A stretch of DNA of 64,000 nucleotides from an uncultured Chloroflexia bacterium (lineage in GTDB: Bacteria; Chloroflexota; Anaerolineae; Anaerolineales; Villigracilaceae). Position numbers and translations under genes: made by a program. Below are positions 7,289 to 59,275 of the stretch, piece by piece; position 1 is the first letter of the stretch; every line of letters begins with the position of its first letter. The DNA lies in assembly GCA_963805515.1 (NCBI GenBank), contig CAWDUZ010000004.1:118105-182104 (forward strand). The letters run 5' to 3'. Below the pieces are notes generated by a model, which saw only the letters and a program-made list of their open reading frames with translations, was not told the DNA's origin and did not search any database.

Positions 7289-8335
7289 CTAGTCGCTTAA
7301 CAGATAAGCCAGGACCCACTGCGTGGTTGCGACCAACGCATCAGTATGGGTGCGCTCGTAATTGTGCGAAGCATCAATGCCGGGGCCGATCAGCGCCACT
7401 GCCACATCCCCGCCGGCACGCCAGAGCGCTTCCCCATCTGATCCATAGTTTGGATATGTATCTGCCTTATAGATGATGCCGTTCGTATCCGCCAGCGCGC
7501 GCAGCTTATTGCTCAAGCCGTGATGGTAAGGTCCGCCGCTGTCCTTGAGACACAGCGAGGCATGGAACTCATCAGATTGTTGACCTTCACCCACAGCGGC
7601 CATGTCCACCGTAACCAGCTCATGCACGTCGGATGGGATCCCTGCGGCGGCGCCATGTCCCACTTCTTCATAGTTGCTGAAAAGAAAGGTAACGCTCTGC
7701 GCGGGGCTTTGACCTGCAGCGGACAGGGATTTGATGGCCGCCACAAGGACCGCGACGCAAGCCTTATCATCCAGGTGCCTCGAGCGCACGAATCCGTTCG
7801 TCAGCTCGACGCGCGGATCGAAAGCCACAAAGTCGCCCGCGTTGATACCGAGCAGGCGCGTTCCATGCGCAGACGAGGTGCTCGCGTCGAGCCGGATTTC
7901 CATATGGTCTTCGTCCCGCTTCGTCTCAGAGGCTTTCGCCCCATAGACGTGGCCGGAGGCCGCATCGATGAGCAGCGAACCCCGTATTTTCTCACCCGCA
8001 GACGTGAAGACCCAACAACCTTCGGTTTCCACGGCGTTAAGCAGCAGGCCCCCGATACGAGTGATTGCGAGCCTGCCATTGGGCTTGAGTTCCTTGACCA
8101 TTGCACCGAGCGTATCCACATGGGCCGTCAAGGCACGCGGCGAGCCAGCGGATCGCCCTTCCCATCTTGCGACCAGGGCGCCTTTGCGTGTGCGCGAGAG
8201 TTGAAGGAACGGATATTGGGAGAGTTCTTTCTCTACAAATGCGATGGCCTGATCCGTAAAGCCGGTTGGTGAGGGAATGTTCAGCAAGTCCACCAGGAAC
8301 TTGATGAGGTAATTGGTATCTACGTCAGGAAGCAT
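7289..8335 (-). CDS. M42 family metallopeptidase (FrvX/glutamyl aminopeptidase-like)
   Basis: 348 aa; M42 motifs HVDTLG, SNYEEVGHGAA and GPGIDASHNYERTH. Confidence 0.8.
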   Translation of the reverse strand: MLPDVDTNYLIKFLVDLLNIPSPTGFTDQAIAFVEKELSQYPFLQLSRTRKGALVARWEGRSAGSPRALTAHVDTLGAMVKELKPNGRLAITRIGGLLLNAVETEGCWVFTSAGEKIRGSLLIDAASGHVYGAKASETKRDEDHMEIRLDASTSSAHGTRLLGINAGDFVAFDPRVELTNGFVRSRHLDDKACVAVLVAAIKSLSAAGQSPAQSVTFLFSNYEEVGHGAAAGIPSDVHELVTVDMAAVGEGQQSDEFHASLCLKDSGGPYHHGLSNKLRALADTNGIIYKADTYPNYGSDGEALWRAGGDVAVALIGPGIDASHNYERTHTDALVATTQWVLAYLLSD

Positions 8336-8938: not shown

Positions 8939-9164
8939 AAGTCTCCTCCAATTCGCTGAATACTTCTTCTGCCAGGTCCCCATTGGACATCAGCCCTTGA
9001 ACTTCTTAATTGTAGCCAGTTTCGCCGGCAGTACAGGTGATCCGTAACCGTCGGCTTACAAAGCAGAGAGGGCAACCGATTGGGTCGCCCTGTCTGTGCT
9101 AATTCACCCTGTCTTTTTTGGCAGTGCCGCCACGAATGCACTCGGTTGTGATGCGTCCCCTGGG

Positions 9165-9608
9165 CTATCCCGGCCTCTTGCCGACGATCGCAGCAAATCG
9201 AGCATCCCCGCGCAGCCATTGGAGGTCCGGATCTTCCCATGCCCGTGCCAGAGTGAACTTTCCGAGCTTTGCCGCTTGCTGAAGGTGTTCGAAAGCCATA
9301 TCGACGTTCCCGCACACGCTTTTCAAACAGGCGCGGCTATACCAATTGTCCTCAGGCATTAACTGTCGGATTTTCTCGACATAGCGGTTGGAAACGGGTT
9401 CCCCCATTACCTTGTAGATCGCCTCGCTCGCACTCCGACAGAACCACGCTCCTCTTAGGATTTCTGCAATCATAATATGGTGCTGGATCATCCCTTTCAA
9501 CGCTAACTGTGGACTTAACCGACTCTGTGGTGAGGCTGCAACGGGATTATTTGCTCTTAGCCTCTCGTGGATAATGGGCACAATGTCGCTAAGCTCTCCC
9601 TTCGTCAA
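9165..9608 (-). CDS. Hypothetical protein, apparent C-terminal fragment of a TPR-like protein (truncated at the low-GC island boundary)
   Basis: The C-terminus (...LARAWEDPDLQWLRGDARFAAIV) resembles TPR-protein ends. The ORF opens just after a stop with only a TTG start, and the upstream sequence switches to the low-GC island. Confidence 0.3.
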   Translation of the reverse strand: MTKGELSDIVPIIHERLRANNPVAASPQSRLSPQLALKGMIQHHIMIAEILRGAWFCRSASEAIYKVMGEPVSNRYVEKIRQLMPEDNWYSRACLKSVCGNVDMAFEHLQQAAKLGKFTLARAWEDPDLQWLRGDARFAAIVGKRPG

Positions 9609-9732
9609 AGCGAAATGTGGACAACCATATCGCCAACTTGTTCATTGGGTGTAAACGACTTGCCTACGCCAACGGCATCTAGGAAAAACTCGGCAAATTG
9701 ATCCTTATGATTGCGCTGTGAGCCGACTGGGT

Positions 9733-10281
9733 TCAAAACACGATTTGCCTGCTGGCTGTAAACAGGTCTGCTACTTGTATGAATATGTTATGAGTAGAAT
9801 CGACGCATCGGATATCATCAATGTACAGTTGTCCATTGAGTCGCGAAGTCGACGCTTGTTTTAGGCGATCATTTAGATCTGCAACTAAGAGACGGTCACT
9901 CCCTTGATCGTCTGAATCTTTCCAAATCTGCAGTAACCTTGGCAATACAGCCCGGCCTGTTTCATGTTCGTCGGTAACGCCTCGCACTAGCAAATGATAA
10001 AACATTTGATGTAACGCATCTTGTTTGTTACTTATGCCTTTAGCAAGAACACTGGTAATTTTGAAACTTACTGCTGGTGCATCTTTCAAGAAAAGCTTGA
10101 TCATTCCTATGTAAACCGGCAAATCATGACGACTTATAGCAGAAAAATGAAATTCTTTGTCAAGCCCGGAATTTTCCTTGAACTTTAGCAAACTACGGTG
10201 CAATGCTAAGATGGGATAACCCCCACCTAAAAACCACACGCTACCCACGATAAGTTGGGGGTCGTTTTTTCCGCTCTTCAT
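9733..10281 (-). CDS. DUF3800 domain protein (predicted RNase H-like fold); N-terminal YMDESG motif lies in the adjacent frame, implying a 1-bp indel
   Basis: The C-terminus (DSTHNIFIQVADLFTASRQIVF) matches the DUF3800 C-terminal motif. Directly upstream, in the -1 frame, ...LSVYMDE abuts MKSGKNDPQLIVGSVWF, which reconstitutes the VYMDESGKND N-terminal motif if one g at about 10262 is removed. Confidence 0.55.
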   Translation of the reverse strand: MKSGKNDPQLIVGSVWFLGGGYPILALHRSLLKFKENSGLDKEFHFSAISRHDLPVYIGMIKLFLKDAPAVSFKITSVLAKGISNKQDALHQMFYHLLVRGVTDEHETGRAVLPRLLQIWKDSDDQGSDRLLVADLNDRLKQASTSRLNGQLYIDDIRCVDSTHNIFIQVADLFTASRQIVF

Positions 10282-10448
10282 CCATGTACACGCTCAGAGT
10301 AGGACAGCCTTCCGGTCTATCTTCAACAGCCTTCTCTTTTTCTTCGTCAGAAAGTGTTCTTCGATGTTGACGGATTTCCGCATTGGCGATGAAAAGTTTA
10401 TACACGTTCTGGATTTGCCCGCCCTTTCTCGGGCTAGAGAAGTTAAAT

Positions 10449-10742
10449 CTAGTCAGGCTGTAGAGATGGTCTGGGGTGATCGATTTGCCGTCGTACTGAT
10501 TTGGCTCGAAAATTTCCCGAAAATTTAGCCTGCAGAGCAATGTCTGAATTCCGGGTTTCGGGATAATGGTTCAGAATCCAGGCAACCTTGTCTCTGAGTG
10601 TGTTTACTACAGCCGATGAGATGTGGTCAATTAGTTGCCTGCGTTCTTCATCTCTGGTAGCTTCTTTTTGTCTCTCCTCTTCTGATAACTCTTGGAACCC
10701 TTCAGAGCGATTGTTCATTGAGTTAAACAATGATGTCTGCAT
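10449..10742 (-). CDS. Hypothetical protein (97 aa; conserved-looking ...VAWILNHYPETRNSDIAL... segment). It may be fused to the DUF3800 gene through a second frame change
   Basis: ATG-initiated ORF in the island. It overlaps a TTG-initiated ORF (10241-10540) that runs into the DUF3800 N-terminal motif. Confidence 0.3.
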   Translation of the reverse strand: MQTSLFNSMNNRSEGFQELSEEERQKEATRDEERRQLIDHISSAVVNTLRDKVAWILNHYPETRNSDIALQAKFSGNFRAKSVRRQIDHPRPSLQPD

Positions 10743-10829
10743 TTTGATGTTTCCCTACCAGATCGGCGAACGGTTGATAGAGCAGCGTGCTCACTTTCCT
10801 GGTTGAGTTGTTATCTGTAATATCGCGAT

Positions 10830-11075
10830 TTAGTATACCGATACCTCCGAGTTGCAACTCTTGGCTGCGATTGAGACGGATATTGTTGCGACAAAGCTAC
10901 GGAGCCTGTCCAGATTCGTTAACACGTTTCCAGATGGCCCGCTGTAATCCGATGTCAATACCTGTTCAATCCATTCGTTCATTGCTTCCAGCATATACCA
11001 TCTCACATTGTGGGCACTTGCGTAGTTCGCGGCATTGCCGGATAGCCCAGGCGAACAAAATAGAAAACTCCGCAC
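10830..11075 (-). CDS. Hypothetical protein (81 aa)
   Basis: ORF only; sits in the low-GC island. Confidence 0.25.
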   Translation of the reverse strand: MRSFLFCSPGLSGNAANYASAHNVRWYMLEAMNEWIEQVLTSDYSGPSGNVLTNLDRLRSFVATISVSIAAKSCNSEVSVY

Positions 11076-11132
11076 TGTGCGATGGCGTACCGATAAGCGA
11101 GACGAGTTTTTCGACGTAGGTGATGTTCGTGG

Positions 11133-11660
11133 CTATGCCTGCACGGTGGCGAAAGCGTACTGATATTTTTTCTTCCCCGTCAGTGAATAATAGCGTGCGA
11201 TTTTCCGCGGTCGAATTGCAGCGGCATATACCCCATTAGAAAAAGAAGGCGGTGAGGCGACGTGCCACTTGTTCTTCGCTATCGTCGAAGGATGAGGAAG
11301 CGGAGCAGAATCGGCAAGAGATGCAAAGGAAGAAAAATGGCGTTCGAGGCCGCTTATATCCTTGGCGCAACTATCCTTCGCTACTTGCCCCGCTGATGTT
11401 CGAAGGGTATTGTCTACATCAGAATTGAACATAGAGAAACTGCGACCGGCTACTTGTAAACCACTCAACCTTGATGCCAAAATAAATCCGAGATAAATAA
11501 CTCCGATCCAGAGTATGGGAGAATGCACTGCAATCGTAACGGCACCAGCAGAGATAATGCCGCAAGAATATATAGACGGTTTCTTGTCGCTACTCCTGGA
11601 CCACTGCTCCTTAAATGTTTTTTCGTTCTGTTGTGCTACGATGATCTGAGATCCTGCCAA
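11133..11660 (-). CDS. Hypothetical membrane protein (2 predicted TM helices near the N-terminus)
   Basis: 175-aa ORF; hydrophobic stretches AGAVTIAVHSPILWIGVIYLGFILA; in the low-GC island. Confidence 0.35.
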   Translation of the reverse strand: MAGSQIIVAQQNEKTFKEQWSRSSDKKPSIYSCGIISAGAVTIAVHSPILWIGVIYLGFILASRLSGLQVAGRSFSMFNSDVDNTLRTSAGQVAKDSCAKDISGLERHFSSFASLADSAPLPHPSTIAKNKWHVASPPSFSNGVYAAAIRPRKIARYYSLTGKKKYQYAFATVQA

Positions 11661-12347
11661 ATCCGATCCTTCTCATGTTGGATTTGTTGAGATATGTGGT
11701 TTCTTGCAGCGAGTTAGGGGCTCCCTTAGCTGTGTGTTCGTGTTGAGTTCACTTTGTCTCTGGTGCCTGTTTGCTTTTGTCTGAGCACGGGTCTGATTTG
11801 TGTGGGATGATTGCGACGCTTCGGCCCGAGCGTAGCCGTTGGATGTCGGAGGCTGTTCGCCAGCAGGTACCGTCGTGGGCTTGACGTTCAATTGGATCTG
11901 ACAGGACTCTGTAGGTCTTGCATCGACTTTGACCTGTGCCTCATGAGAGTCGCCCCTATCTGGGGTGGCTCTCTTAGGCTAGCCTGTCTGTACGCCGAGC
12001 GTATTTCCTGTGGCGCAAGCTATTTCCTGATATGCCCAAAAATCCATAGCAATTAAACCTGTTCATATTCCTCACCTAGCATAGAATCGACCTCGAATCG
12101 GCGTCGCCAAACTCATCCCTAATGAACCTGTGCAATCACGGCAGGCTCTCGCAAGCGTTACCGTCACTATCCGAATCGAGCCTGTGGATATCCCCGTGGC
12201 CAATGGATTTGCAGTAGTCGTAACATGCCTGCGCGCTGGCATGCTGCCAGAAAAATCGCCGCAGTTATAGAGATTGCCGCTGCACGAACACGCCGCCGCC
12301 CCGCCGGTGCCTGGTGCTGTTGGCAGAGGTGCGCAGGGTCGGTATGG

Positions 12348-12890
12348 TTAGCGGAGCTGCCCAAATTCCAAGACTGTGTCGGCAGATGCCGCTTGTTCGA
12401 CCGCCTGGAAAGCAGGGATACAGGCCGTATCCGGAGGATAGGAGGCCGCTTTTGCAAATGCCAGTGCCACGAGTTCGTAATTAACGAAGACTTTGTCAAC
12501 GATCACGTAGCGCAGCAAGCGTCCGTATCTGTCGGTCTCGGAAACATCCTTGAACAACAAAGCATCCTTGCCAAAAACCAATTCTGTATTCTTCGCGCTG
12601 GCCTCTGCCGCATAATATTGGATGCCGCCGCTCATTTCGGGAGTGTCCATGCCGATATAGCGCACAGAGTATGTTTTCCCATCCCCATCCAGCATGACCT
12701 TGATCGTGTCACCGTCTACTACTTGGACGACTTTGCCGTGCTCTGGTGGATTGGTCGGAATGCAGCCTGCGCCGTTGATGCCAGATAGGTCGGCGATTGC
12801 TGGAAGTGGGATTGCCGTCTCCGTTGCCAGCGGTGGTGGCTGCGATGGGTGTCGCCGTAGCTTGCGCCATGGGCGTACTTACACTGAGCG
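12348..12890 (-). pseudogene. Staphylococcal-nuclease (SNase/thermonuclease)-like domain, N-terminally degraded. The same frame upstream contains two TAA stops, then a TM helix
   Basis: ...GKVVQVVDGDTIKVMLDGDGKTYSVRYIGMDTPE...TDRYGRLLRYV...VNYELVALAFA is an SNase domain. The conserved VVDGDTIKV lies upstream of the first ATG. In the same frame further up come ...SRRHQS*ARSV*VRPWRK... and then the TM segment ILLIGGGILSSLCLLLLCSAVVL. Confidence 0.55.
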
Positions 12891-12982
12891 TGCTTAGCTT
12901 TGATGCCGACGCGATCCAAAAACGGACGTGTTGATAGCACCGTAATCAAGCGTCGGCTGCGGCGCGGCGAAGTTCATCCGAC

Positions 12983-13372
12983 TTAACACAACAGCGGAGC
13001 AGAGCAGCAGCAGACATAGGCTTGAAAGAATTCCCCCGCCGATAAGCAGGATCTGCGTGACGTTTCCTCCGCCTTTTCGCCGTGGCGGTAATCCCTGGTT
13101 AGCGCCGTAGTTGGGAGGCGGCTTGGTCGGTCGGACTGCGCCTTTGGCTGACCGGGATAATTCTGGTTGAAACTAAGCGGGCTCGATGCAAGGAGATTGT
13201 CGCCCGTATAGGACATGCCCGTGCCGGGCAGGGATACGGTCGGGAGAACGCCCCGCCTTCCAACATTCATATGAAAGCCCTTGCCGCCAATAGATGTGCT
13301 TAGTCCACCCTTGCTTAGATCGACTTTTACGCCCGGAAAAATCTTGAGTGAACGACGGAAGCGAAAAGGCAT
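12983..13372 (-). CDS. DUF4236 domain protein. It is probably the N-terminal part of a degraded DUF4236-TM-SNase membrane nuclease (a frame change joins it to the TM segment)
   Basis: MPFRFRRSLKIFPGVKVDLSKGGLSTSIGGKGFHMNVGRRGVLPTVSLPGTGMSYTG matches the DUF4236 N-terminal repeat signature. An alternative frame from about 13150 encodes a Pro-rich linker plus TM helix continuous with the SNase frame. Confidence 0.55.
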   Translation of the reverse strand: MPFRFRRSLKIFPGVKVDLSKGGLSTSIGGKGFHMNVGRRGVLPTVSLPGTGMSYTGDNLLASSPLSFNQNYPGQPKAQSDRPSRLPTTALTRDYRHGEKAEETSRRSCLSAGEFFQAYVCCCSAPLLC

Positions 13373-13457
13373 AGTATCCCTCCATCCTGCCAACTATCAT
13401 CGTACACATTTCCGGTAGAGTTTACAAGTGCCTTTCGCACCCTGATTCCGCTAGGAA

Positions 13458-14239
13458 TTAGGCCGCCTGCCCCTCATACTTCACGATTCCCCGGCACTGC
13501 GGATAATTCGCGCATCCCCAGAACTGCCCGCCCTGGTTGGTCCCGCTCTTTGCCGTTCTCAGCACCATCTCCCCGCCGCATTTCGGACAGCACGGCGCAC
13601 TGTTTTGTTTTTCGATCACCACCGGTTGGACCGGCGTTTCGGCCTTCGGCAAGCCCATGTGCTGGCGCAACGCCGCAGGTTAGCTCCGTCACCGAATATG
13701 CCTGCCGCACCGGGATTTCAGCAGCGGCAGCTTTGCCGCCTCTGAAAACCCTCTCCACGAACTCATCCCTCCCCTGCCTGTCGCTCCGCTGGTGACTCTT
13801 ATCATCCAGTTCTATGCCCAGCAGCGGCCCGCGCCGTCTTCGGCTCGCACACCAGGAAATCCACATGCTTCCGGTCGATCTTATTTGTCAGCGTCCTGTA
13901 CTTGCTCGCATCGTTCGACCTCACATAGAACAGATCGTGCAGCCCCACCTTCGGGCAGATCAAAGCCCAGTCCGCCACGACATGCTTCAGCACCAGATAG
14001 AAGTTCTGCTCCGCGGGGGATAGGAAGTCATCCCTCACCAGGTACGGATATTCCGGCGGCCCCGCCGGCTTCGGGTCATTTCTCCGACAGCAGGTCCACG
14101 ATCCGATCGACAATATCATCGACCGCCTCGGTCGACAGCCCGATGGTCCGCAATATCGAGCGCAGCAGTGAGAACTTTTCTTGAAGATGGCATGCTTGAC
14201 TGTCCGCCTCTTGTTCAATTTATCCGGTTTCGGCGTCAA
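13458..14239 (-). pseudogene. DUF2726 (NERD-like nuclease-related) domain protein with C-terminal topoisomerase-type C4 zinc ribbon, split over 3 frames
   Basis: ORF 13802-14239: ...FLSPAEQNFYLVLKHVV...HVDFLVCEPKTAR. ORF 13474-13866: PLLGIELDDKSHQRSDRQGRDEFVERVF (DUF2726 core). ORF 13458-13670: CPKCGGEMVLRTAKSGTNQGGQFWGCANYPQCRG (zf-C4_Topoisom). Frame changes at about 13850 and 13690. Confidence 0.55.
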
Positions 14240-14520
14240 TTCTGCCTACCGAACTATAACGTATCCACTGGAGTAAGCCGATGATACCCCCGATCGGCTC
14301 CGCCAAGATTACCAAAGCCGTTAAGTCGGCTGCCGTGACGCAATACCATCTGAGATGATCAGATCCCGCCGCTTGTTCTTCCCGTTTTCCCATGAGTGCT
14401 AATGAGATTTTTGCTCGCCTCATCCCCTTTCCAATTCCTCTATTACCGACTCCGACCGGGGCCCGTAACCGCGGTGCATACTAGCGTGCTTACCCAATTC
14501 TCATTTTCCCCCGGAGCGTC

Positions 14521-15060
14521 GTCTTCGGGCCACAAAGCGCCCTTTCCCAAAACATTGTAGTACTAATACAAGGGCGTACAAGGACGTACAAACTTTGTCC
14601 TTGACCATAGAACACATGTTCCCTATAATGATCGAAGGGAACTACCATGCTTACAACTCACTTTGCCTCCGCTCATCCGACGTTGGACCCCCGACTTTTG
14701 ACGTTACACCGTCTATCCATCTCTCATCTGTACATACCAAGGTGTTCTTCGCAGAGCGCGCTTTACTCGAAAAGAAGCGCATTGTTCCCCGGAGGCGTTC
14801 TCCAGCCGAGGCCAGGTGCAGGACGTTCTTCCCTGCAAAGGTGTCTCCTGCATCTCTCTCATACCAGAATGTTCTTTGCGGAGCACGCTTTACTCGACTA
14901 GGAACGCCATTGATCCTCATTGTTTTTCTAGAGAGCAAGGTGGTAAAAAGCCGGTTTTCGACCCCCATATATGGCCGGCCTACCCGTGCGCAGCGTCCCA
15001 ATGTCCATATATGGCCTCGCATTGACCCTCCGAAAGAGCCTCAAAATCGGCATTTTTCAA
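14521..15060 (-). repeat. Dispersed repeat element, copy A (inverted relative to copy C at 54380-55030). Its end module is 2x CGYCCTTGTR 10-mers, the TAGTACTA palindrome and TACAAT; the body shares ccatatatggc palindromes
   Basis: The revcomp of 14521-14590 is near-identical to 54961-55030. 14880-15010 is about 90% identical to the revcomp of 54440-54560. The embedded ORFs share the peptide IDPHCFSREQGGKKPVFDPHIWPAY. Confidence 0.6.
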
Positions 15061-15263
15061 TGGAGAGGTGGAAAGCGCCGTACCGCCTCTTGATGCCCAA
15101 CCTTCGGCGTTTAACCGAGCCAGCGCTCAGTGCGTACGCTATCAGGTTATACAATTATCAAACTCTTCAACTAGGAGACGATGGGATTACCGTATGTACT
15201 ATTCGAACCTCATTCGAGATTCGCATTGCGCAATGTATTCCCGCTACTTACTGCGTTCACTCG

Positions 15264-15678
15264 TCACTGCCAACCGCCAAGCTTCCGTCGCCACTCTTCG
15301 GGCACGGGGATCGTCTGATGGCTGTGGTAGTCATACGCCACGAGCACCACTTCGCCGCTGGCATGGACCTGCGTGCCCATCTCATCCTCAACGGTCTCTT
15401 CCAGGGTGATGGACTTGTTTCCGATCTTGATCGTCCGCACCCCTACCCTGATGGGCGCACCCAGGAATACCGGCGCCAGGTACTTGATGTGGATGTCGGC
15501 AACGATCACCCCGATATCCATGAACGACTTGTCTTTGGAGAACAGCCCCAGCGCCGCGAAATACTGGATGCGGGCCTGCTCAAAGTAGGTCAGGTACTTG
15601 GCGTTGTTGAGGTGCCCCTGCGGATCCAGGTCACCGTATCGCACTTCCATCGGATGAAAGAATTTGTGCTCGTCCATG
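15264..15678 (-). CDS. Acyl-CoA thioesterase (4HBT/YbgC-like hotdog fold)
   Basis: MDEHKFFHPMEVRYGDLDPQGHLNNAKYLTYFEQARIQYF...; this is the 3' part of the long ORF 15264-16706, whose upstream portion is antisense to the sortase gene. Confidence 0.7.
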
Positions 15679-18353: not shown

Positions 18354-18552
18354 TCAGTGAGCAGTTGATGGTGGAGGCGAGGGGTTGGCGGGCTTCCCTT
18401 GACGGGGAAGGCGGACAAACCAAGCGCGAGAACGTAGAAGAACAAGGGGAGAGAAGTTGAACCAAGCGAGGGAGGAAAGTATTACTGCTTGTTGCATAAA
18501 TATCTAAACAGGTCGTAATCGGCAGCAGGGCAGAAAGTAATATTCAGGTTTA

Positions 18553-18599
18553 GATAATTACGCAGTACCTTGTAGACAATTACGCAGTACCCTGTAAGA
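18553..18599 (+). promoter_or_regulatory. Tandem 23-bp direct repeat (AATTACGCAGTACCYTGTARA x2) overlapping a putative promoter 20 nt upstream of pxpB. Candidate operator for the pxpBCA operon
   Basis: ataattacgcagtaccttgtagac / aattacgcagtaccctgtaagat. TTGTAG-N17-TAAGAT is sigma70-like. A 9-bp inverted repeat (tatctaaac/gtttagata) lies just upstream. Confidence 0.35.
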
Positions 18600-18619: not shown

Positions 18620-19292
18620 GTGAATCAAGACGATAGGGTGAAGATCGTGCCGCTCGGGGATGCGGCGCTGCTGGTGCTGTATGGCGATGAGATCGAGCTT
18701 GCGACCAACCAGCGCGTGCATGCGCTGGATGCGCGGCTGAGGGCGAAAGCGATCAGCGGCGTGATCGAGATGGTGCCGGCGTACGCGAGCCTGGTGGTCC
18801 ATTACGATCCGCTGAGGTTGACGTACGCGGAGGTGATGGACTGGGTGAGGGCGGAAATGCCCGTGTGGAAGCAGGGGCTGCTCGAAAGGCCGCGGCGCGT
18901 GGAGGTTCCGGTGCGCTACGGCGGCGAGGAAGGGCCTGACCTGGAATTCGTCGCGGCGTACCATCGAGTGAGCACGGAGGAAATCGTGCGGCGGCATACG
19001 AGCCGCGATTACACGGTGTTCATGATGGGGTTCACGCCGGGCTTCCCCTACATGGGCAAGCTGGAGGAGGGGATCGCGACGCCGAGGCTGGAGACGCCGC
19101 GCACGCGGGTGCCGGCGGGGTCGGTGGGGATTGCGGGGGCGCAGACCGGGATCTACCCGATCGAGTTCGCCGGGCGGGTGGAGGCTGATCGGGCGGACGT
19201 CGCTGCGGTTGTTCGACCCGGAGGCGGAAGAGCCATTCCTTTTTTCGCCGGGGGACAGCGTGCGCTTCGTCGCGGAGGCGCTGGATGCTTGA
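18620..19292 (+). CDS. pxpB: 5-oxoprolinase subunit B (PxpB; KipI/allophanate hydrolase subunit 1 family). There is a frameshift near 19170
   Basis: GTG start. ...[13 protein letters not shown]...GIYPIE, then in the shifted frame [42 protein letters not shown]. Confidence 0.75.
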
Positions 19293-20234
19293 GGTGTTGG
19301 AAGCTGGCGGACTGGCGACGGTGCAGGATGAGGGGCGGCTTGGATGGAGGCGGTACGGGGTGCCAGCCGCGGGGCCGATGGATGCGTTTGCTTTCAGGGC
19401 CGCGAACCTACTGGCTGGCAATGAAGAAGATGCGGCGGCGCTGGAGGTGGGAGCAGGCGACCTGGTGCTGAGGGCGACGTATGATTGCGTGGTGGCGGTG
19501 ACGGGAGCGGGGTATCAAGCTGTCGGTGGGACCGTGGGACGTTCACACTGTGGGGCTCGTATTTTGTCAGGGGCGGCTGGACGATCCGGCTCAACAAGCT
19601 GGGCTTCGGGATGTGGGCCTACGTCGCAGTGGCGGGAGGATTGGATGCGCCGAGGGTGCTCGGCTCACGCTCCACCTATATGCGCGGGCGGTTCGGGGGG
19701 ATGGACGGGAAGGCTGCTGCAAGCGGGGGATGAGCTGAAGATCGAGAGGCCGACGCCGCGGTCTGATGGAGGCGGCGGGGCGGAGCTCTGACTGAAGAGG
19801 CGCGGCCCGCGTATCGGTCGTACCCCATTGTAGATGTGGTGATGGGGCCGCAGAACGATCAGTTCGACGAGGAGAACGTGAGCAGGTTCCTATCGGGGAC
19901 GTACTGGGTGAGCGGGGCGTCGGACCGGATGGGATACCGGTTGCAGGGGCCGCGGCTGGAACGGAAGAGCCGAGCGGAGCTTACGTCGGAGGGGATGGCG
20001 ATGGGATCGATCCAGGTGCCGGCGGATGGGCAGCCGATCGTGATGATGGCGGACAGTGCGACAACGGGAGGGTATCCGAAGATCGCATGCGTGACGAAGG
20101 CGGACATGCCGCTGCTGGCGCAGTGCACGCCGGGGAGGGATGAGGTGCGCTTCCGGGAGGTGAGCGTGGAGGCGGCGCAGGAGAAGTATCGGGAGACGAT
20201 GCGGAGGATGAGGGGAGGGGTGGAGGATTTTTGA
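19285..20234 (+). CDS. pxpC: 5-oxoprolinase subunit C (PxpC; KipA/allophanate hydrolase subunit 2 family), spread over 3 or more ORF pieces
   Basis: [31 protein letters not shown]...; then ...[43 protein letters not shown]...; then ...QGPRLERKS...[30 protein letters not shown].... The start overlaps the pxpB stop (ATGCTTGA). Confidence 0.7.
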
Positions 20235-20449
20235 TTGTAGATTTTAGATTGATGATTGGAAGAGCAAGAGCCAAACACAAAGGGAGATTCACCAGAGATG
20301 AACATGGATGAACCAGGATATAGGGATAAGAGATATTTTCTATGTCTGGTTGAGCCGAAGAGCAAGAATTAAACACCAAGGGCACCAAGGACTTAAAGGG
20401 AAGAACATTTTAGATTGACGGATTGGGTGTGGCTGAAGGCTGATGGCTG

Positions 20450-21221
20450 ATGGCGGAGTGTGAGATGAACATTGACTTGAACTGTGATATGGGCGAGAGC
20501 TTTGGGCGATATGCATTGGGGGATGACGAGGCGCTGATGCCGTTCATCAGCTCGGCAAACATTGCGTGCGGGCTGCATGCGGGGGATCCGATGGTGATGC
20601 GGAGGACGGTGTGGCTGGCGAACGCATACGGGGTGGCGGTGGGGGCACACCCGGGCTGGCCGGACATGCAGGGATTTGGGCGGCGGGAGATGATGTTGAC
20701 GCCGGAGGAGGCGGAGGCGTATGTGCTGTATCAGATCGGGGCGCTGGCGGCGTTCGGGCGGGCGGAGGGGGAACATGCGGAGCGGGTGGAACTGCGGCAC
20801 GTGAAGGCGCACGGGGCGCTGTATAACCAGGCGGCGAAGGATAGGCCGTTGGCGGAGGCGATCGCGCGGGCTGTGAAGCTGTTCGACAAGGACCTGATCC
20901 TGGTGGGACTGGCGGGGTCGGAGATGATCGCGGCGGGGATGGGAACTGGGGCTGCGAGTGGCGAACGAGGCGTTCCCGGACCGGCGGTATAACGCGGACG
21001 GCACATTGATGTCGCGGAAGCTGCCGGGGGCGCTGATCGAATCTCCGGAGGAGGTGGCGATGCATGCGGTGTCGCTGGCGAAGGATGGGATCGACTTTGC
21101 GGGGGAACGTATACAGGTGGATACGTTATGCCTGCACGGGGATAGTCCGCAGGCGGCGGAGAATGCGAGGCTGGTGAGGGAGGCGCTGGGGAAGGAGGGA
21201 ATAACGGTGAGGGGATTGTAA
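20450..21221 (+). CDS. pxpA: 5-oxoprolinase subunit A (PxpA; LamB/YcsF family). There is a frameshift near 20945
   Basis: [15 protein letters not shown]...[12 protein letters not shown]...GAHPGWPD...VKAHGALYN, then in the shifted frame ...[16 protein letters not shown]...LCLHGDSP. Confidence 0.75.
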
Positions 21222-21894
21222 ATTGTAGATTGTAGATTTTAGATTTGATTGTTGATTGCAGCCGACGGTTGAGGGCCGGTACCTGGATGAGGAGAAGAGC
21301 TTTAACCACGACCACCTAACGGGTGCAGGCGGCCACAAAGCGGCACCAAGGAAGAACAAGGAAAGATCGAAACAGGGAAGCAGCGATACAAGTTGTTAAG
21401 GTTCGGGTGGGAGCTCCCGCTGGTAGTGGGACCTCCGCTCCGCTACGACTTCGCTCGGAAGGTCAGCCAAGAGCAAATGCGGATATCCGGCGGGCTTTCG
21501 GGGCATTGGCAAAGATAAGAAAACGCCTCTTAAAAAGAGGTTCGAATAGGATTGGCTTGCCGTAAATTACGGGTAAACGGGTCGCGAAAACGGGGAGGTT
21601 CGAATAGAGGGTCAAATGGGACGTCCGGTTGGCAGTTGACAGTTGGCTCCGGCATTCGCTTTGCCCGGCGGGGTACCCAGTAAACAGTTTCCAGTATGCA
21701 GTGAGCAGTATATAGTGGGCGTTTGGCGGTGATAAGGAGAAGGCGCGGGAGCGGGTGACGACTGAAGGGGGATGAACGGAATGCGAACCGCGAATGCAAG
21801 CCGGGCTGGCGAGGCTCCAATGGATCCAGATACCGAGGAGGGAGATGACATGCCATGCAATCATTATGCGGAACATATGTTCGAGTGTCAAGAT

Positions 21895-21990
21895 AAGGCG
21901 AACGTGCGCCCTTGTACGTCCTTGTGTGCCCTTGTGTTAGTACTACAATGTTTTGTAGCAGGGCCGCTTTGTGGCACGTAGATCACGCTT
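21895..21990 (+). repeat. Partial copy B of the dispersed repeat's end module (3x CGYCCTTGTR 10-mers + TAGTACTA palindrome + TACAAT)
   Basis: aacgtgcgcccttgtacgtccttgtgtgcccttgtgttagtactacaatgttttgtagcagggccgctttgtggc aligns to 54955-55028 and to the revcomp of 14521-14590. Confidence 0.5.
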
Positions 21991-22148
21991 AATAAGGGGA
22001 AGAGAGACAGGAAACAAGAAAGAGGAATAGGGGTGGGCGGCGGGGATTGATTTTTCATCGGAGGGTCAGCATAATGGATAAGTGGCGGCGATCTTCGCAC
22101 CTGCGGCAACCATTGGCGCAAATCCTGCAATTCGATCGGAAACCTTGA

Positions 22149-22700: not shown

Positions 22701-22815
22701 TGGGCAGTCCGCGCGCGCTGAGGGCTGGGAATCCGGCAAAGGATGAAGCAGTTCAAGGCGGGAAGTTTTAGGATAGAGCCTGCTTGGAGTTCGAATCTCT
22801 AATCCCCAGCCTACA

Positions 22816-22849
22816 GAATACCGCCTTGTGCGGTATTCTTGTTTGTTTT
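22816..22849 (+). terminator. Rho-independent terminator (gaataccgc-cttgt-gcggtattc + TTGTTTGTTTT)
   Basis: Perfect 9-bp stem, 5-nt loop and a T-rich tract, downstream of ORF 22149-22700. Confidence 0.6.
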
Positions 22850-22898
22850 GCGCATCAATGGAGGTACGGAAGCCAGGGACCTATTCCACGGTTGCGAT

Positions 22899-23159: not shown

Positions 23160-23179
23160 TTCACACTCCTCTTATCTCG

Positions 23180-24519: not shown

Positions 24520-24633
24520 TGGGCAGTCCGCGCGCGCTGGGGCTGGGAATCCGGCAAACGATGAAGCAGTTCAAGGCGGGAAGTTTTAGGATAGAGCCTG
24601 CTTGGAGTTCGAATCTCTAATCCCCAGCCTATA

Positions 24634-24667: not shown

Positions 24668-24716
24668 GCGCATCAATGGAGGTACGAAAGCCAGGGATCT
24701 ATTCCACGGTTGCGAT

Positions 24717-51721: not shown

Positions 51722-54323
51722 TCAAGAGGGCTTATGAAGGATCTGCAGGATCTCGAGCGTCTCCTGCTTTCCACCGATGCCGTTCTCGCCGCCAGGGCCG
51801 ACACATGAGGGGCAGCCATCCTTGCACTCACATTCGGAGACCAATTCAAGGGCACGCGCGATCAGCTCGGCGTGCATCTCGTACAGCTTCTGGCTGAAGC
51901 CGATGCCGGCGGGGACCTGATCGTAGAGCACGACGGAGGGGCGGGCCGTGTCCTCATCAGACGGGGAACCGCCGCGCAATGTTCCGGCGGCATCGGTGTG
52001 GGAGCCGAGGTCGCTTGGGTCGCACATGAGGAATAGCGGCGCAAGCTGGCTCAGTACGTAGGACAGCCCTGCCAAGCCGGAACGAATGCGGACGTTCTGC
52101 TCGGCCTTGTGATGGCAGGTGGGGCAGAGCGTGACGAGGTTGTCCATGCGGTTGGCCTCGGCCCAGGAAGTGAAGGTGCGGAAGGGGACCTTATGATGGA
52201 CATCGTGCTCGCGGCCGTTCTCGGGCGCACCGCAAACCTGGCAGCGGAAGCCATCACGCGTGCGGACCGCGAGGCGGATGCGCGGCCAGTTGGGACCGTA
52301 GTCGTTGGGATCGTTGGTCCACAGCGCCGCTGGAGCGAAGCTTATCAACGGCCTCATTGGAGAGAGTGAGCCAGTAGCCGGTGGTCTGCAACTGGGTTGC
52401 CGGCATGTCGAGCGGAGCTTCGCCCAAATTCTCCTGCGTGAACCAGCGCAGCTTCTTGAAACCCACGACCTGCGTGGTCACCTGGATCTCGCCCCAACCT
52501 TTTTCGCCGCCGGGGACGGGTGATAATGCCGACTCGGTGAGAACCTGGATCTCGGAGTGCTGCTGGGCTTCGGTGTAGTAGTCCAGCGCGACGGCGGTGA
52601 GCGTGGCGACCTTCTTCTCGAGATTCAGATCATGCACGAAGTATTGCTGGCCTTCGTGGATATAGATGGCGTTTGGATGGATCATCCAGTAGGCGCTGGC
52701 GAGGTCCACCTGCCCGATGATCTGCGGTCGATCATCGGTGGTCTGAAGGACGACATTCTCCGGCGAAGCGGAACGCAAGGAGATATTGGCGGCGGGATAG
52801 GAATCGGACATCCAGAAATATTGATCCTGGGAGGCATGGACTTCCTGATTGGAGGACAGGTACTCGAGGATCTCCTGCACGGTCTGCGGCGAGAGCGAGC
52901 CGAAGCCTTCGCCCTTCTGGAAGGGCAGCTCGAAGAGGGCACAGCGCAGATGATTGAGCAGGATCAGAAGATGATCGGGATTGATGAGCGCCTGCTCGGG
53001 CGACTTGCCGAAGAAATAATCGGGGTGATGGGCAAGGAACTGATCGAGCGGATTGGCAGAGGCGACGAGCACGGATAGGGCGGGCGCTTCGCCGCGGCCC
53101 GCGCGCCCGGACTGCTGATAGACGCTGGCAATGGAGCCGGGATAGCCGACCAGCAGTGCGGCCCCCAACCCGCCGATATCGATGCCCAACTCGAGGGCGT
53201 TGGTGGCTACGACGGTCTGGAGGGTGCCGGAGCGCAGGCCCTGCTCGATCTCGCGGCGCTGAGACGGGAGGTAGCCGGAGCGATAGCCGCGGATGGGGGA
53301 GTTGAGGAGTCGGGAGTTGGGGAGTCGGGAGTTGGGAGTCGATATTCGGGAATCGGAGGTGAGCTGCGGCCTGGACGATGATGCCTGGCGGTCGTCCTGG
53401 AGATAGGTGAGCATCATCTCGACGCTGCGGCGCGAGCGTGCAAAGATCACGGACTGGACATGGGCGGCGAGCAGATCCTGAGCGAGGCGCACGCTTTCCA
53501 TCAAGGAGCTTTTGCGCAGGCCGAGGGCCTCGTCTATAACCGGCGGATTGTAGAGCAGGAAGTGACGCTCGCCACGCGACGAGCCGTCCTGGTCGATCAG
53601 CTCAACGGGGGCTTCGATGAGCCGGGCAGCAAGCTCCTGCGGGTTGCCGATGGTGGCGGAGGTGAGGATGAACTGCGGGTAGGAGCCGTAAAAGTGAGCG
53701 ACGCGCTTGAGCCGGCGGATGACATTGGCAATGTGCGAGCCGAAGACGCCGCGATAACTGTGCATCTCATCGATCACGACGAAACGCAGGCCGCGGAAGA
53801 AGTCGGCCCAGTTGGTGTGATGCGGGAGGATGCCGGTATGCAGCATATCGGGGTTCGAGAGGATGATGCGGGCGCTCTTGCGGATGAGCGAGCGCTGGCC
53901 CTGCGGCGTGTCGCCATCATAGATGGCGCCGGGGACGTTGACCGCCGGAGACTTGAAGGCTTCCAGCACGGAGAGCTGATCCTGGGAAAGGGCCTTGGTG
54001 GGGAACAGATAGAGGGCGCGGGCGGAAGGCTCGACAAGCAGGGAGGCCATTACAGGCAGGTTGTAGGCGAGGGTCTTGCCGCTGGCGGTGCCGGTGGCGA
54101 GGACGATGTTGCTGCCCGCGCGGGCGGCGACCCATGCATCCAACTGGTGACTGTAGAGCATGGAGATGCCGCGCCTTGACAGGGTCTCGCGCAAGGCAGC
54201 GGGCATATCGTCGGGCAGGGGACGCGTCTGCGCGGGCCGCGCGGGCCGCGTCTGCCAAATGGGGAAGTTGGGAGCGGTCTTCGGGTCGGTGCGCCAGAGG
54301 TTGATGAGAGAGTCTAGAGACAT
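51722..54323 (-). CDS. DEAD/DEAH-box helicase with C-terminal DUF1998 zinc-finger domain (MrfA/YprA/Lhr-like), about 865 aa. There is a frameshift near 52300
   Basis: Walker A GTASGKT, DEMH (DExH), SATIGNP..., HRSGRAGR region. The C-terminal ORF 51722-52357 has the CxxC...CxxC DUF1998 (CQVCG...CPTCHHK...CPSC). An in-frame PNSRL-type tandem repeat at 53281-53345 is encoded. Confidence 0.75.
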
Positions 54324-54379
54324 GGGAGCGGGAATAGTTTACTCTGTGCGGCGGCCTTCGACGAGTAGGAGTGAATAGG

Positions 54380-55030
54380 ATAACCAGGTGGAGCATCGGC
54401 AATTCGTATCGCCGATGTGCGCAGGCCTTTGGAGGTTCAATGGAGGCCATATATGCGACATTGGGACGCGGCGTACGGAGTAGGCCTGCCATATATGGGG
54501 GTCGAAAACCGGCTTTTTACCACCTTGCTCTCTAGAAAAACAATGAGGTTCAATGGCGCTTTTGATGACTTGAAGCGCTCCATTGATTAAGCCGACTTTG
54601 ACCTTTTGGAGGGCATGGCGGACATAAAGGACATTAAAGGGAAGAGCAGGCGCACCTCCGGGGTCAATGGGAGGGAAGAGTGAATAGAGAATCGAGAATG
54701 GATCATGGGAAGACAATCGGTGATAGGCATGGTGTGTTGCTGAGAGTGGCGAGTAGAGCATGCGCCGCAAAGAAGACTTTGGTAGGCAAAGCGCGGTTGG
54801 TGGGAAGAGCAGTAGACACGAAGACAGGTAAACACGGCCAGAGGCAAGCATGGGTTTTCTCTACGGTGAGTGTATCACCAAAATACATAATGGCGGCGGG
54901 ATGCCGCCTTACGTGATCATTATATAGAACGGGTGTTCTGGCGTCAAGGAGAAAGTTTGTGCGCCCGTGTACGCCCTTGTATTAGTACTACAATGTTTTG
55001 TCGAAGGGCCGCTTTTTGGCCCGCAGATAC
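54380..55030 (+). repeat. Dispersed repeat element copy C (inverted partner of copy A at 14521-15060), ending in a promoter-like 10-mer iteron/palindrome module oriented toward the RHS locus
   Basis: See copy A. The end module is gtgcgcccgtgtacgcccttgtattagtactacaatgttttg, i.e. TTGTAC-N16-TACAAT. Confidence 0.6.
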
Positions 55031-55076
55031 CATCCCCGCCTTTGGGGACCCCGCCTGGCGGGAAAGAACGGAACTG

Positions 55077-59274: not shown

Positions 59275-59275
59275 G

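What the first reader, a model, noticed from the sequence alone, without database searches (positions are those of the whole stretch)
14521..15060. A roughly 600-bp repeat in inverted copies 39 kb apart (14.5-15.1 kb vs 54.4-55.0 kb), with a third partial copy at 21.9 kb
The revcomp of 14521-14590 matches 54961-55030 almost base for base. Internal segments (14880-15010 vs revcomp 54440-54560) are about 90% identical and contain twin ccatatatggc palindromes and short ORF fragments encoding the same peptide (IDPHCFSREQGGKKPVFDPHIWPAY). All copies end in a module of two or three tandem CGYCCTTGTR 10-mers, the perfect palindrome TAGTACTA and TACAAT, which can be read as a TTGTAC-N16-TACAAT promoter, so the iterons may overlap a promoter. 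The ends point respectively toward the DUF2726 nuclease-like gene (copy A), the duplicated DUF4177 module (copy B) and the 100-bp tandem repeats/GxxExxY/RHS locus (copy C). Large inverted repeats flanking a 39-kb segment could also mediate chromosomal inversion. This looks like an uncharacterised MITE or regulatory cassette delivering a promoter plus iteron operator next to accessory, defence or toxin loci.
Basis: seen in the sequence. Interest (0 to 1): 0.65.

Follow-up and report, generated by a model that had tools for sequence, protein, structure and literature searches.

The report
Repeated DNA-damage promoter cassette, non-coding
The repeat is a family of DNA-damage (LexA/SOS-type) promoter cassettes, kept at fixed places in an uncultured Chloroflexota lineage, that read into stretches with no conserved protein-coding signal and sit at the edges of strain-variable gene islands; it is not a jumping MITE.

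Summary
The repeat is real, but it is not one 600-bp unit. All three window copies share a ~95-130-nt module. Copies A and B also share a ~130-180-nt downstream "core", and the sequence between module and core is diverged. Each module holds a 17-bp dyad (TTGTAGTACTAAYACAA), 2-4 helically phased TACAAGGRCG 10-mers, and a near-consensus sigma-70 promoter (TTGACN-17-TATAAT, 11/12). A LexA/Cheo box, GAAC-N4-GTTC, lies in the promoter spacer.

I found 12 module copies in the window and relatives. Nine distinct copies keep a perfect dyad with nine different spacers. The 0.35-0.8-kb regions downstream are pyrimidine-rich and show no coding signature, Pfam or Rfam match, or significant RNA covariation.

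Copies A and C lie at orthologous sites in a ~90%-identical relative. There are no terminal inverted repeats. A MITE is therefore not supported.

In the copies whose neighbours I annotated, the dyad side mostly abuts strain-variable cargo (nuclease-like genes, RHS toxin, R-M, recombinases). The best reading is an SOS-repressed promoter family with a second, unidentified upstream operator. The closest analogue is the LexA-bound 13E12 repeats of M. tuberculosis. The function of the transcripts is unknown.

The parts
14526..14546 (+). Copy A: outer boundary of the repeat with a short GC hairpin-like motif (GGGCCACAAAGCGCCC). This motif is shared only by the copies of this species.
   Evidence: Similarity among A, B and C ends sharply here. 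Relatives carry a pyrimidine tract (TTCTCTATTC...) at this position instead.
14555..14571 (+). Copy A: 17-bp near-dyad TTGTAGTACTAATACAA (TTGTA-N7-TACAA).
   Evidence: AAACATTGTA and ACAAGGGC are invariant in the seven aligned modules.
14567..14591 (+). Copy A: 2.5 tandem, helically phased 10-mers (TACAAGGRCG), ending about 10 nt before the -35 hexamer.
   Evidence: TRF. The number of repeats is 2-4 in other copies.
14601..14629 (+). Copy A: sigma-70-type promoter TTGACC-17-TATAAT (11/12), reading rightwards into the body.
14610..14621 (.). Copy A: LexA/Cheo-type dyad GAACACATGTTC inside the promoter spacer.
   Evidence: 4 in the window against 0.68 expected..
14636..15278 (+). Copy A body: pyrimidine-rich stretch with no coding signature, ending at the 3' end of the convergent thioesterase gene.
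   Evidence: The whole segment 9034-15278 is absent from conspecific L010.
14855..15086 (+). Copy A conserved core. It runs from CATTGATCCTCATTG through two perfectly conserved purine-rich boxes, with the twin CCATATATGG arms between them.
   Evidence: nhmmer E=9e-71. Alignments.
54895..55031 (-). Copy B module. Dyad 54993-54977, 10-mers about 54981-54957, promoter TTGACG-17-TATAAT 54947-54919, LexA-type box 54927-54938. It reads leftwards.
54340..54912 (-). Copy B body. The core is at 54580-54400, preceded by a degenerate extra unit at about 54700-54576. It runs into the helicase gene that starts at 54323.
   Evidence: The body is rearranged in the conspecific strain L009.
52254..54323 (-). 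DEAD/Helicase_C/HRQ1-WHD helicase downstream of copy B. It is truncated here; relatives are 804-866 aa and add MZB and HNH domains.
21837..21989 (-). Copy C module. Dyad 21948-21932, 3-4 10-mers, promoter TTGACA-17-CATAAT 21891-21863, LexA-type box 21871-21882. It reads leftwards.
21391..21856 (-). Copy C body. It has a different conserved core at about 21640-21530 with three ATTYGAMCCTC boxes and the palindrome CCGTAATTTACGG. It is convergent with the pxpA-like gene.
   Evidence: The core is conserved in L001, L011 and L010.
21332..21344 (.). 13-nt exact inverted copy of the boundary motif GCCACAAAGCGGC, at the far end of copy C only.

Best explanation
The repeat is a lineage-restricted, chromosomally stable family of SOS-type promoter cassettes.

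Shown:
- Each copy has a near-consensus sigma-70 promoter.
- The 17-nt spacer of that promoter holds a GAAC-N4-GTTC dyad. This is the LexA operator of Firmicutes and Actinobacteria; PMC4951493 says variations of the motif are seen in Chloroflexi, citing the D. ethenogenes study.
- Upstream lie a very highly conserved 17-bp dyad and 2-4 helically phased TACAAGGRCG repeats.

Inferred mechanism:
- LexA sits on the dyad between -35 and -10 and blocks RNA polymerase.
- DNA damage leads to RecA-stimulated LexA self-cleavage, and the promoter fires.
- The product is a 0.35-0.8-kb pyrimidine-rich RNA that shows no coding signature and contains short conserved blocks.
- In copy B the transcript would run on into an Hrq1/MrfA-like repair helicase.
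- In A and C it would run against the 3' ends of convergent genes.
- The upstream dyad plus 10-mers is a second operator for an unidentified DNA-binding protein. That protein could be an activator or a recombination or architectural factor. The operator may also serve a weak outward promoter whose -10 would be TACAAT.

The copies are old paralogues kept at fixed loci, with exchange between them, and not recent transpositions. What the RNA or its conserved DNA blocks do is not known.
For: Promoter and LexA-type box:
- Promoters score 11/12 with a 17-nt spacer in all three copies, reading inward.
- GAAC-N4-GTTC occurs 4 times in the window against 0.68 expected, three of them in the modules.
- In 197 kb of held DNA there are 15 sites, 12 of them in modules. 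That sequence was fetched because it holds the element, so this is not an independent test.
- Nine distinct copies have a perfect dyad with nine different N4 spacers. L001 and L002 each have one mismatch.

Family size: 12 module copies in the window, a conspecific, a ~90% relative, a Chloroflexia MAG and metagenome contigs.

Conservation: the dyad plus 10-mers is 49/49 identical between window A and its positional orthologue in L011. The surrounding body is 42-87% identical.

Orthology of A and C in L011.

Non-coding body:
- Non-synonymous changes far outnumber synonymous ones in all frames.
- Single-base indels separate A, B and L009B.
- There is no Pfam or PADLOC match.
- The C ORF has no homologue.
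- Database ORFs over the same DNA read it in different frames.

Literature for the LexA motif: PMC4951493.
Against: - LexA binding and damage induction are not tested.
- No lexA or recA promoter of this lineage was available to confirm that its LexA uses this box.
- The two copies in the MFD MAG have a mismatch in one arm.
- The distal core of copy C survives in conspecific L010 without any module. L013 has the A-type units and core with no module within 260 nt. So body and promoter can be uncoupled.
- RNA folding gives no strong structure: z = +1.9, -1.7 and -1.6.
- Covariation is not significant.
- No function can be assigned to the transcript.
- Helicase orthologues in relatives lack the module, so SOS control of that gene is not ancestral.
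Confidence: 0.55

Rival explanations
1. The module is a recombination or attachment platform. Accessory DNA would be captured by site-specific recombination next to the dyad. The dyad with its 7-bp centre would act as a core site and the tandem 10-mers as accessory or arm-type sites. The SOS promoter would link the site to DNA damage. This would be analogous to the 13E12 repeats of M. tuberculosis or to an integron attI.
For: - Between positional orthologues (window A and L011A), similarity ends within about 8 nt of the dyad, and different cargo follows: DUF2726/DUF4236/DUF3800 against a type I R-M system.
- At locus C the cargo differs in all three genomes. The window has DUF6584 x2, L010 has DUF4760/DUF5122, and L011 has none.
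- Copy B lies at the end of a 7.6-kb segment with two tandem tyrosine recombinase genes. That segment is absent from relatives.
- L014 has a truncated second dyad plus 10-mers about 200 nt upstream of a full module.
- The 13E12 repeats are LexA-bound and carry a phage attachment site (PMC3381160).
Against: - There is no recombinase near A or C.
- No second partial copy of the dyad was found at the far ends of the variable segments.
- Cargo genes point towards the module in L011A and L014.
- Variable regions between core genes are common without any dedicated site.
- The deletion in L010 removes module and body together, not the cargo alone.
Confidence: 0.15
2. It is a MITE-like mobile cassette that delivers an outward promoter (TTGTAC-N16-TACAAT) with an overlapping iteron operator to neighbouring accessory, defence or toxin genes.
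For: - TACAAT (read as AAACATTGTA on the other strand) is invariant in every copy. This includes copies whose dyad centre has changed, L012 and L016.
- In the window the first genes on that side are co-oriented with such a promoter in all three copies.
- Presence/absence differences exist between strains.
Against: - The first hexamer is 3/6 (my count) and varies between copies. The consensus scan did not report this promoter.
- There are no terminal inverted repeats.
- No target-site duplication is visible.
- A and C are orthologous in L011.
- The exact-pattern scan of 185,579 species genomes found one MAG only, and the bodies are strongly diverged.
- Cargo genes point inward in L011A and L014.
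Confidence: 0.12
3. The bodies are decaying copies, or assemblies damaged by frameshifts, of an SOS-induced small protein gene. The gene might be leaderless, because ATG lies 6-7 nt after the -10 in C, L001, L002 and L004.
For: - CATG lies 6-9 nt after the -10 in 4 of 7 aligned copies.
- Long sense ORFs are present: 108, 170 and 370 aa.
- By my reading, the conserved part of the C-type core has 8 of 12 differences between window C and L001 at third codon positions.
- Peptide-like blocks (TKVFFAEHALL..KRIVPHCFSREQGGKK.VFDPHIW) recur in database ORFs.
- Both assemblies carry many frameshifted genes.
Against: - The sense strand is pyrimidine-rich (Y = 56-61%), so stop codons are rare in all three sense frames.
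- Window A against its orthologue L011A gives non-synonymous well above synonymous changes in every frame.
- The frames of the shared blocks differ between copies.
- Single-base indels lie outside homopolymers.
- There is no family match.
- The 170-aa ORF is broken in the conspecific strain.
Confidence: 0.1

Closest known systems
LexA (SOS/Cheo) box promoters of Firmicutes, Actinobacteria and Dehalococcoides (GAAC-N4-GTTC)
   Same: The same dyad, placed within the core promoter. The arms are conserved while the 4-nt centre varies freely across copies (PMC4951493).
   Different: - It does not sit in front of a recognised SOS gene; it sits in front of apparently non-coding DNA.
- It is always coupled to an upstream 17-bp dyad and phased 10-mers. 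I found no match for that feature and do not know it from LexA promoters.
- Binding is untested.
13E12 / REP13E12 repeat family of Mycobacterium tuberculosis
   Same: - A multi-copy chromosomal repeat family.
- Most members are bound or controlled by LexA, with a second DNA-damage promoter element (RecA_NDp).
- It contains a phage attachment site and is prone to exchange between copies (PMC3381160; PMC13061034).
- Here there is also mosaicism between paralogues: L001 has a B-type module with a C-type body.
   Different: - 13E12 repeats encode proteins. No protein family matched here.
- There is no sequence similarity, and the phylum is different.
- An attachment function here is only a conjecture.
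Integron platform (LexA-controlled PintI plus attI with an inverted simple site and direct repeats)
   Same: The order of parts is the same: an SOS-box promoter reading one way, then direct repeats, then an inverted pair, then variable cargo. The integron side of this comparison rests on my own knowledge.
   Different: - There is no integrase gene behind the SOS promoter.
- I did not look for attC-like sites in the cargo.
- The cargo consists of ordinary genes with their own orientation.
SOS-induced small RNAs and type I toxin loci (for example tisB/istR-1, dinQ/agrB of E. coli); LexA peaks at sRNA genes in M. tuberculosis
   Same: A LexA-type operator in front of a short locus without an annotated protein (PMC3381160).
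   Different: - There is no small hydrophobic ORF and no antisense partner.
- The transcripts would be much longer (0.35-0.8 kb).
- There is no Rfam match even at E<=1.
MITEs and REP-like intergenic repeats
   Same: Short, multi-copy and intergenic, with hairpin-containing sub-repeats. One example is the GTTCT-loop hairpin with covarying stems.
   Different: - No terminal inverted repeats.
- No target duplication.
- Orthologous positions are kept across about 10% divergence.

Membership tests
LexA/Cheo-box SOS promoter | Dyad GAAC-N4-GTTC with conserved arms and a free centre | tested here: met
   Perfect in 9 distinct copies with 9 different centres, and one mismatch in 2 copies.
LexA/Cheo-box SOS promoter | The operator overlaps the core promoter, so a bound repressor blocks RNA polymerase | tested here: met
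   The box lies in the 17-nt spacer of an 11/12 promoter in A, B and C.
LexA/Cheo-box SOS promoter | The same motif lies upstream of lexA/recA in the same lineage; LexA binds; the promoter is induced by DNA damage | not testable with these tools
There are no expression data.
MITE | Terminal inverted repeats | tested here: not met
   None in A, B or L011A. Only a 13-nt pair around C.
MITE | Target-site duplication at filled against empty sites | tested here: inconclusive
   Comparing L011 (with module) with L010 (without) shows no duplication, but the junction is not clean.
MITE | Recent mobility: near-identical copies at non-orthologous sites | tested here: not met
   A and C are positional orthologues in L011. 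The bodies of A, B and C are largely diverged.
IS/transposase remnant (the shared peptide) | Similarity of the ORF fragments to a transposase or any protein family | tested here: not met
   No Pfam match at E<=1 and no PADLOC match at E<=0.1. The only relatives among 1.84 billion representatives are unannotated ORFs over the same element.
13E12/REP13E12 repeats | Encoded 13E12-family protein | tested here: not met
   No Pfam domain in any body ORF.
13E12/REP13E12 repeats | Multi-copy, LexA-box-bearing, next to integrated elements | tested here: met
   This is functional resemblance only.
Integron | An intI integrase gene adjacent to and divergent from the cassette array | tested here: not met
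   No integrase behind the SOS promoter. Tyrosine recombinases lie only 2.7-5 kb away, on the cargo side of copy B.
Plasmid/phage iteron origin | A Rep gene nearby; similarity to plasmid or phage DNA | tested here: not met
   No match in 72,556 plasmids or 50,697 phages, none in IMG/VR, and no Rep-like domain nearby.
Known structured RNA (Rfam 15) | A match to a covariance model | tested here: not met
   None at gathering score over the whole window. None at E<=1 over copies A and C.

The most novel reading that the evidence does not exclude
The cassette is an SOS-linked capture site. The invariant dyad and phased 10-mers would form an attachment or assembly site at which diverse defence, toxin and nuclease cargo is inserted next to a damage-inducible promoter. 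It would be a non-integron, Chloroflexota counterpart of attI or the 13E12 repeats, and the conserved non-coding core would be part of the machinery. My evidence does not exclude it: cargo differs between genomes directly beside the dyad at loci A and C, copy B ends a recombinase-bearing island, and L014 carries a duplicated partial dyad.
Probability: 0.12. Interest if true: 0.8.

Novelty: new variant of a known kind. Interest (0 to 1): 0.5.

Why it matters
If the reading is right, it adds an undescribed branch to the SOS regulon of a poorly studied, uncultured Chloroflexota lineage. The branch would be a conserved non-coding family under a LexA-type operator, paired with a second, more strongly conserved upstream operator whose binding protein is unknown. 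The position of that operator at the border of strain-variable defence and toxin cargo gives a concrete, testable link between the DNA-damage response and island turnover. It also corrects the annotation: several public gene calls over these elements (for example P0242-P0251) are probably not genes.

Tried and rejected
- Contiguous 600-bp repeat: rejected.
- MITE: no terminal inverted repeats, and A and C are orthologous in L011.
- Protein-coding body: the C ORF has no homologues. There are no Pfam or PADLOC hits. There is no synonymous excess. The frames differ between copies. I at first noted codon-like substitution patterns in two short stretches, the C-type core and a paralogous comparison of the TKVFFAE unit. 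I do not rely on them, because the orthologous comparison shows no such signal.
- Known RNA family: none.
- Stable RNA fold: z-scores are weak or positive. The consensus fold has a covariation term of +1.36, and the pair counts are no better than shuffles.
- Intrinsic terminators: a hairpin at 21540-21526 is not conserved in L001.
- Plasmid, phage or viral origin: no matches.
- Module as the ancestral promoter of the helicase: rejected, because three relatives lack it.
- Second att-like half-site at island ends: none convincing.
- Source genome: not in the gene-position index.
- L003 was a chance match in eukaryote-like DNA.
- Inversion of 15-55 kb: the conspecific contig is collinear.
Full report

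Yes in substance. The repeat finder gives these pairs:
- inverted arms 14539-14633 / 54915-55009 (95 nt, 85%);
- inverted arms 14905-14983 / 54480-54558 (79 nt, 97%);
- a third copy, 21912-21983, that matches 54957-55028 directly (72 nt, 85%) and 14539-14591 in inverted orientation (53 nt, 87%).

The 22-mer ACATTGTAGTACTAAYACAAGG occurs exactly three times, against 0 in 100 shuffles. TRF finds 2.5 copies of TACAAGGACG.

It is not one 600-bp repeat. Between the shared ~95-nt module and the shared A/B core lie about 270 nt that do not align. The 21.9-kb copy has a full module followed by a different downstream sequence.

The ~104-bp repeats, the GxxExxY ORF (55443-55757) and the RHS C-terminal/toxin ORFs lie beside copy B. 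The duplicated genes beside copy C are Pfam DUF6584.

**2. Anatomy of the module**

Read in the direction that runs into the repeat, every copy has the following parts:
- the invariant stretch AAACATTGTA;
- a 17-bp near-dyad TTGTAGTACTAAYACAA (TTGTA-N7-TACAA);
- two to four head-to-tail 10-mers, TACAAGGRCG;
- about 10 nt further on, TTGACN, a 17-nt spacer, and TATAAT or CATAAT.

The consensus scan scores these promoters 11 of 12 in all three copies. In each case the strand is the one that reads into the repeat. The spacer of each promoter holds GAAC-N4-GTTC.

That dyad occurs four times in the window against 0.68 expected, and no shuffle reaches four. Three of the four are in the modules. GAAC-N4-GTTC is the LexA operator of Firmicutes and Actinobacteria; PMC4951493 says variations of it are seen in Chloroflexi, citing the D. 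ethenogenes study.

By my count its first hexamer matches 3 of 6, and it is GTGTAC, TTGTGT or CCGTAC in other copies. The scan did not report it. Its TACAAT is invariant everywhere, so a weak or activator-dependent outward promoter is not excluded.

**3. Relatives**

The exact-pattern scans found little:
- one Chloroflexia MAG with two copies among 185,579 species genomes (L001, L002);
- one real metagenome contig (L004) plus one chance hit (L003);
- nothing in IMG/VR.

Walking out from neighbouring genes and from ORFs called over the element gave more:
- a conspecific strain at about 98% identity (L009, L010);
- a ~90%-identical relative (L011);
- further contigs L012-L016.

Profile searches of everything held find 12 module copies.

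The LexA-type dyad is perfect in nine distinct copies. Their centres all differ: ACAT, ACCC, ATAT, ACGG, AAGT, GCGT, ATTT, GTCT and ATAA. Two copies (L001, L002) have one mismatch. Conserved arms with a free centre are what a dimer-binding site looks like.

The dyad plus 10-mers is even more conserved. It is 49/49 identical between window A and its positional orthologue in L011, while the rest of the element is 42-87% identical. The number of 10-mers changes by whole units of 10-11 nt, which keeps the helical phase.

**4. What lies downstream of the promoter**

The bodies are A 14636-15278, B 54912-54340 and C 21856-~21391. Their sense strands are pyrimidine-rich (Y = 56-61%), with few stop codons in any sense frame. 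Long ORFs there are therefore expected by composition alone.

I found no evidence of coding:
- The 108-aa ORF of C has no homologue.
- No ORF matches Pfam at E<=1 or PADLOC at E<=0.1.
- Between the orthologues A and L011A, non-synonymous differences far outnumber synonymous ones in every frame and every block.
- A, B and L009B differ by single-base indels outside homopolymers.
- The 170-aa ORF of B is broken in the conspecific strain.

A full search of 1.84 billion representatives with that 170-aa ORF found nine other unannotated ORFs. Their sequences show the same DNA blocks read in different frames. For example, REQGGKKPVFDPHIW in some corresponds to ESKVVKSRFSTPIYGRP in others, and one ORF switches frame midway. 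It is not a transposase remnant either.

**5. Conserved blocks and RNA structure**

The motif ATT(N)GAnCCTC occurs 10 times in the window. Nine of these are in the three bodies, and all nine are on the sense strand.

A-type and B-type bodies share a ~230-nt core (nhmmer E from 1e-50 to 1e-72 in A, B, L009, L011, L012, L013, L014 and L016). The core has two purine-rich boxes that are identical between A and L011A: CCTCATTGTTTTTCTAGAGAGCAAGGTGGTAAAAAGC and GCCTCAAAATCGGCATTTTTCAATGGAGAGGTGGAAAGC.

C-type bodies (C, L001, L011C, L010) share a different ~105-nt core.

The twin CCATATATGG sequences can pair with each other. The consensus fold predicts this helix, and one pair changes on both sides (A-U to G-C in L012). 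But the covariation term is +1.36, and the pair counts do not exceed shuffles.

Single-sequence folds are unremarkable: z = +1.9 for C, -1.7 for A and -1.6 for B. A short hairpin with a conserved GTTCT loop recurs in A-type bodies with three different base pairs at one stem position (TGCAGG/CCTGCA, TGCCGG/CCGGCA, GCGGGG/CCCCGC). No Rfam family matches.

The RNA-structure question stays open.

**6. Is it mobile?**

The evidence is against recent mobility.
- In L011, thioesterase, sortase, methyltransferase, pxpBCA and GH3 are syntenic with the window. Modules sit at the same two places and in the same orientation as A and C.
- There are no terminal inverted repeats in A, B or L011A.
- There is nothing similar in plasmids or phages.

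The loci are still dynamic.
- The conspecific L010 lacks window 9034-15278 (6.2 kb: cargo, module A and body A) and has 325 nt there instead. Those 325 nt are homologous to the flank upstream of L011's module.
- At locus C, L010 lacks 21660-22390 (module plus proximal body) but keeps the distal core.
- Copy B lies in a 7.6-kb segment between the helicase and a phosphatase gene. Three ~78%-identical relatives lack that segment.
- Body B is rearranged between the two conspecific strains.
- Module and body types are mosaic. L001 has a B-type module with a C-type body, which suggests exchange between paralogues.

**7. Context**

In the copies whose neighbours I annotated, the dyad side faces variable cargo, except at L011C:

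| Copy | Cargo on the dyad side |
|---|---|
| A | DUF2726 (split), DUF4236, DUF3800 |
| B | GxxExxY, RHS C-terminal/toxin, HEAT-like immunity, two tandem tyrosine recombinases |
| C | two DUF6584 units |
| L011A | type I R-M genes |
| L014 | NADAR-DarT1-like ORF |
| L010, locus C | DUF4760, DUF5122 |
| L011C | none |

Between the orthologues A and L011A, similarity stops about 8 nt outside the dyad. In this species all copies carry the same ~30-nt GC hairpin-like motif at that edge. Relatives carry a pyrimidine tract there.

The promoter side faces core genes. In B that is the Hrq1/MrfA-like helicase, in the same direction. In A and C the neighbouring genes are convergent.

**8. Mechanism and rivals**

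My best reading (0.55) has three parts.
- LexA occupies the spacer dyad and blocks the promoter.
- DNA damage removes LexA, and an RNA with no coding signature is made. In B it reads into the helicase.
- An unknown protein uses the dyad plus 10-mers as a second operator. The head-to-tail 10-bp repeats next to -35 resemble sites of winged-helix response regulators, and the 4-7-4 dyad resembles LysR-type sites. Both resemblances are from memory and untested.

Shown: sequence features, conservation, orthology and lack of coding signal. Inferred: LexA binding, induction, transcript ends and any function.

The rivals are:
- a recombination or capture site (0.15);
- a decayed or mis-assembled small gene (0.10).

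**9. Comparison with known systems**

As a promoter it meets the sequence criteria of a LexA/Cheo box. Binding cannot be tested here.

The nearest described analogue is the 13E12/REP13E12 family of M. tuberculosis. It is a multi-copy repeat, mostly LexA-bound, with a second damage-responsive promoter element and a phage attachment site, and it is highly prone to gene conversion (PMC3381160; PMC13061034). This cassette is not a member, because it has no 13E12 protein or any other domain.

It fails the tests for a MITE, an integron, an iteron origin and any Rfam family.

**10. Verdict**

This is a real, lineage-restricted, previously undescribed non-coding family under a LexA-type operator. I rate it a new variant of a known kind.

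Interest is moderate (0.5):
- The SOS promoter itself is ordinary.
- The invariant upstream operator, the conserved non-coding core and the consistent position beside variable cargo are not explained.

On inversion, the record ranges and the alignments show that the conspecific contig is collinear with the window. There is no evidence for inversion of the 15-55 kb interval.

Noticed in passing
window 5421-5482 and 18517-18578; LexA-type box at 5516-5527: A second repeat family of ~120 nt (ACAGGGTRCTGCGTAATTATCT...GTTTAGATATTWATGCAACAAGCAG) in inverted copies. The 5.4-kb copy is directly followed by the window's fourth GAAC-N4-GTTC site (AGAACGTATGTTCT), next to a TATAAT on the minus strand. 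The site is conserved in conspecific L010 at 4223.
   Followed up: partly
window 22126-23202 and 23949-25017: A 1.8-kb tandem duplication (84-97% identical) carrying a DUF6584 gene and the following ORF. Conspecific L010 has one diverged unit (~90%) plus different genes (DUF4760, DUF5122).
   Followed up: partly
window 55092-55330: Degenerate ~104-bp tandem repeat (77-78% identical) between module B and the GxxExxY ORF. TRF does not score it.
   Followed up: partly
window 54338-61888: A 7.6-kb segment absent from three helicase-syntenic relatives. It holds module and body B, GxxExxY, an RHS C-terminal fragment with toxin (56227-57121), a HEAT-like immunity ORF (57118-57672), and two tandem tyrosine recombinase ORFs (57730-59430 and 59276-60226, minus strand). 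The recombinase pair resembles a Tn554-like arrangement (from memory).
   Followed up: partly
window 9034-15278: A 6.2-kb strain-specific segment (DUF3800, DUF4236, split DUF2726 with a zinc-ribbon tail, module and body A). In the conspecific contig it is replaced by 325 nt.
   Followed up: yes
window 52254-54323; 13458-14239; 18620-21221: Several genes look frameshifted. The helicase is 689 aa against 804-866 aa in relatives. DUF2726 is split into three ORFs. The pxpB/C/A genes are fragmented. The conspecific assembly shows the same kind of breaks, which suggests long-read indel errors or pseudogenes. This limits any ORF-based argument here.
   Followed up: partly
L013 86-880, then 872-2485: Three ~119-nt tandem units plus the A-type core, with no SOS module within 260 nt, lie directly upstream of a gene with a phage terminase large-subunit domain (Terminase_6C).
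   Followed up: no
L014 3710-3781 and 3948-4054: A truncated second copy of the dyad plus two 10-mers lies ~200 nt upstream of a full module. The two are separated by a long palindromic element (GGTCGGGCTG...CAGCCCGACC), which also precedes the modules in L001 and L002.
   Followed up: partly
window 14818-14844; L011 ~7306-7330 and ~7441-7467; L013 ~224-248, ~348-374 and ~456-482: A hairpin with a conserved GTTCT loop. Its stem changes by paired substitutions between copies (TGCAGG/CCTGCA, TGCCGG/CCGGCA, GCGGGG/CCCCGC).
   Followed up: partly
window 21225-21270: A simple repeat (aatcaaatctaaaatctacaatctacaatttacaat) between the pxpA-like gene and the end of body C.
   Followed up: no
P0242-P0251 (public gene calls): Public gene predictions of 141-271 aa lie over these elements in several metagenomes. 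They read the same conserved DNA in different frames and are probably spurious genes.
   Followed up: yes
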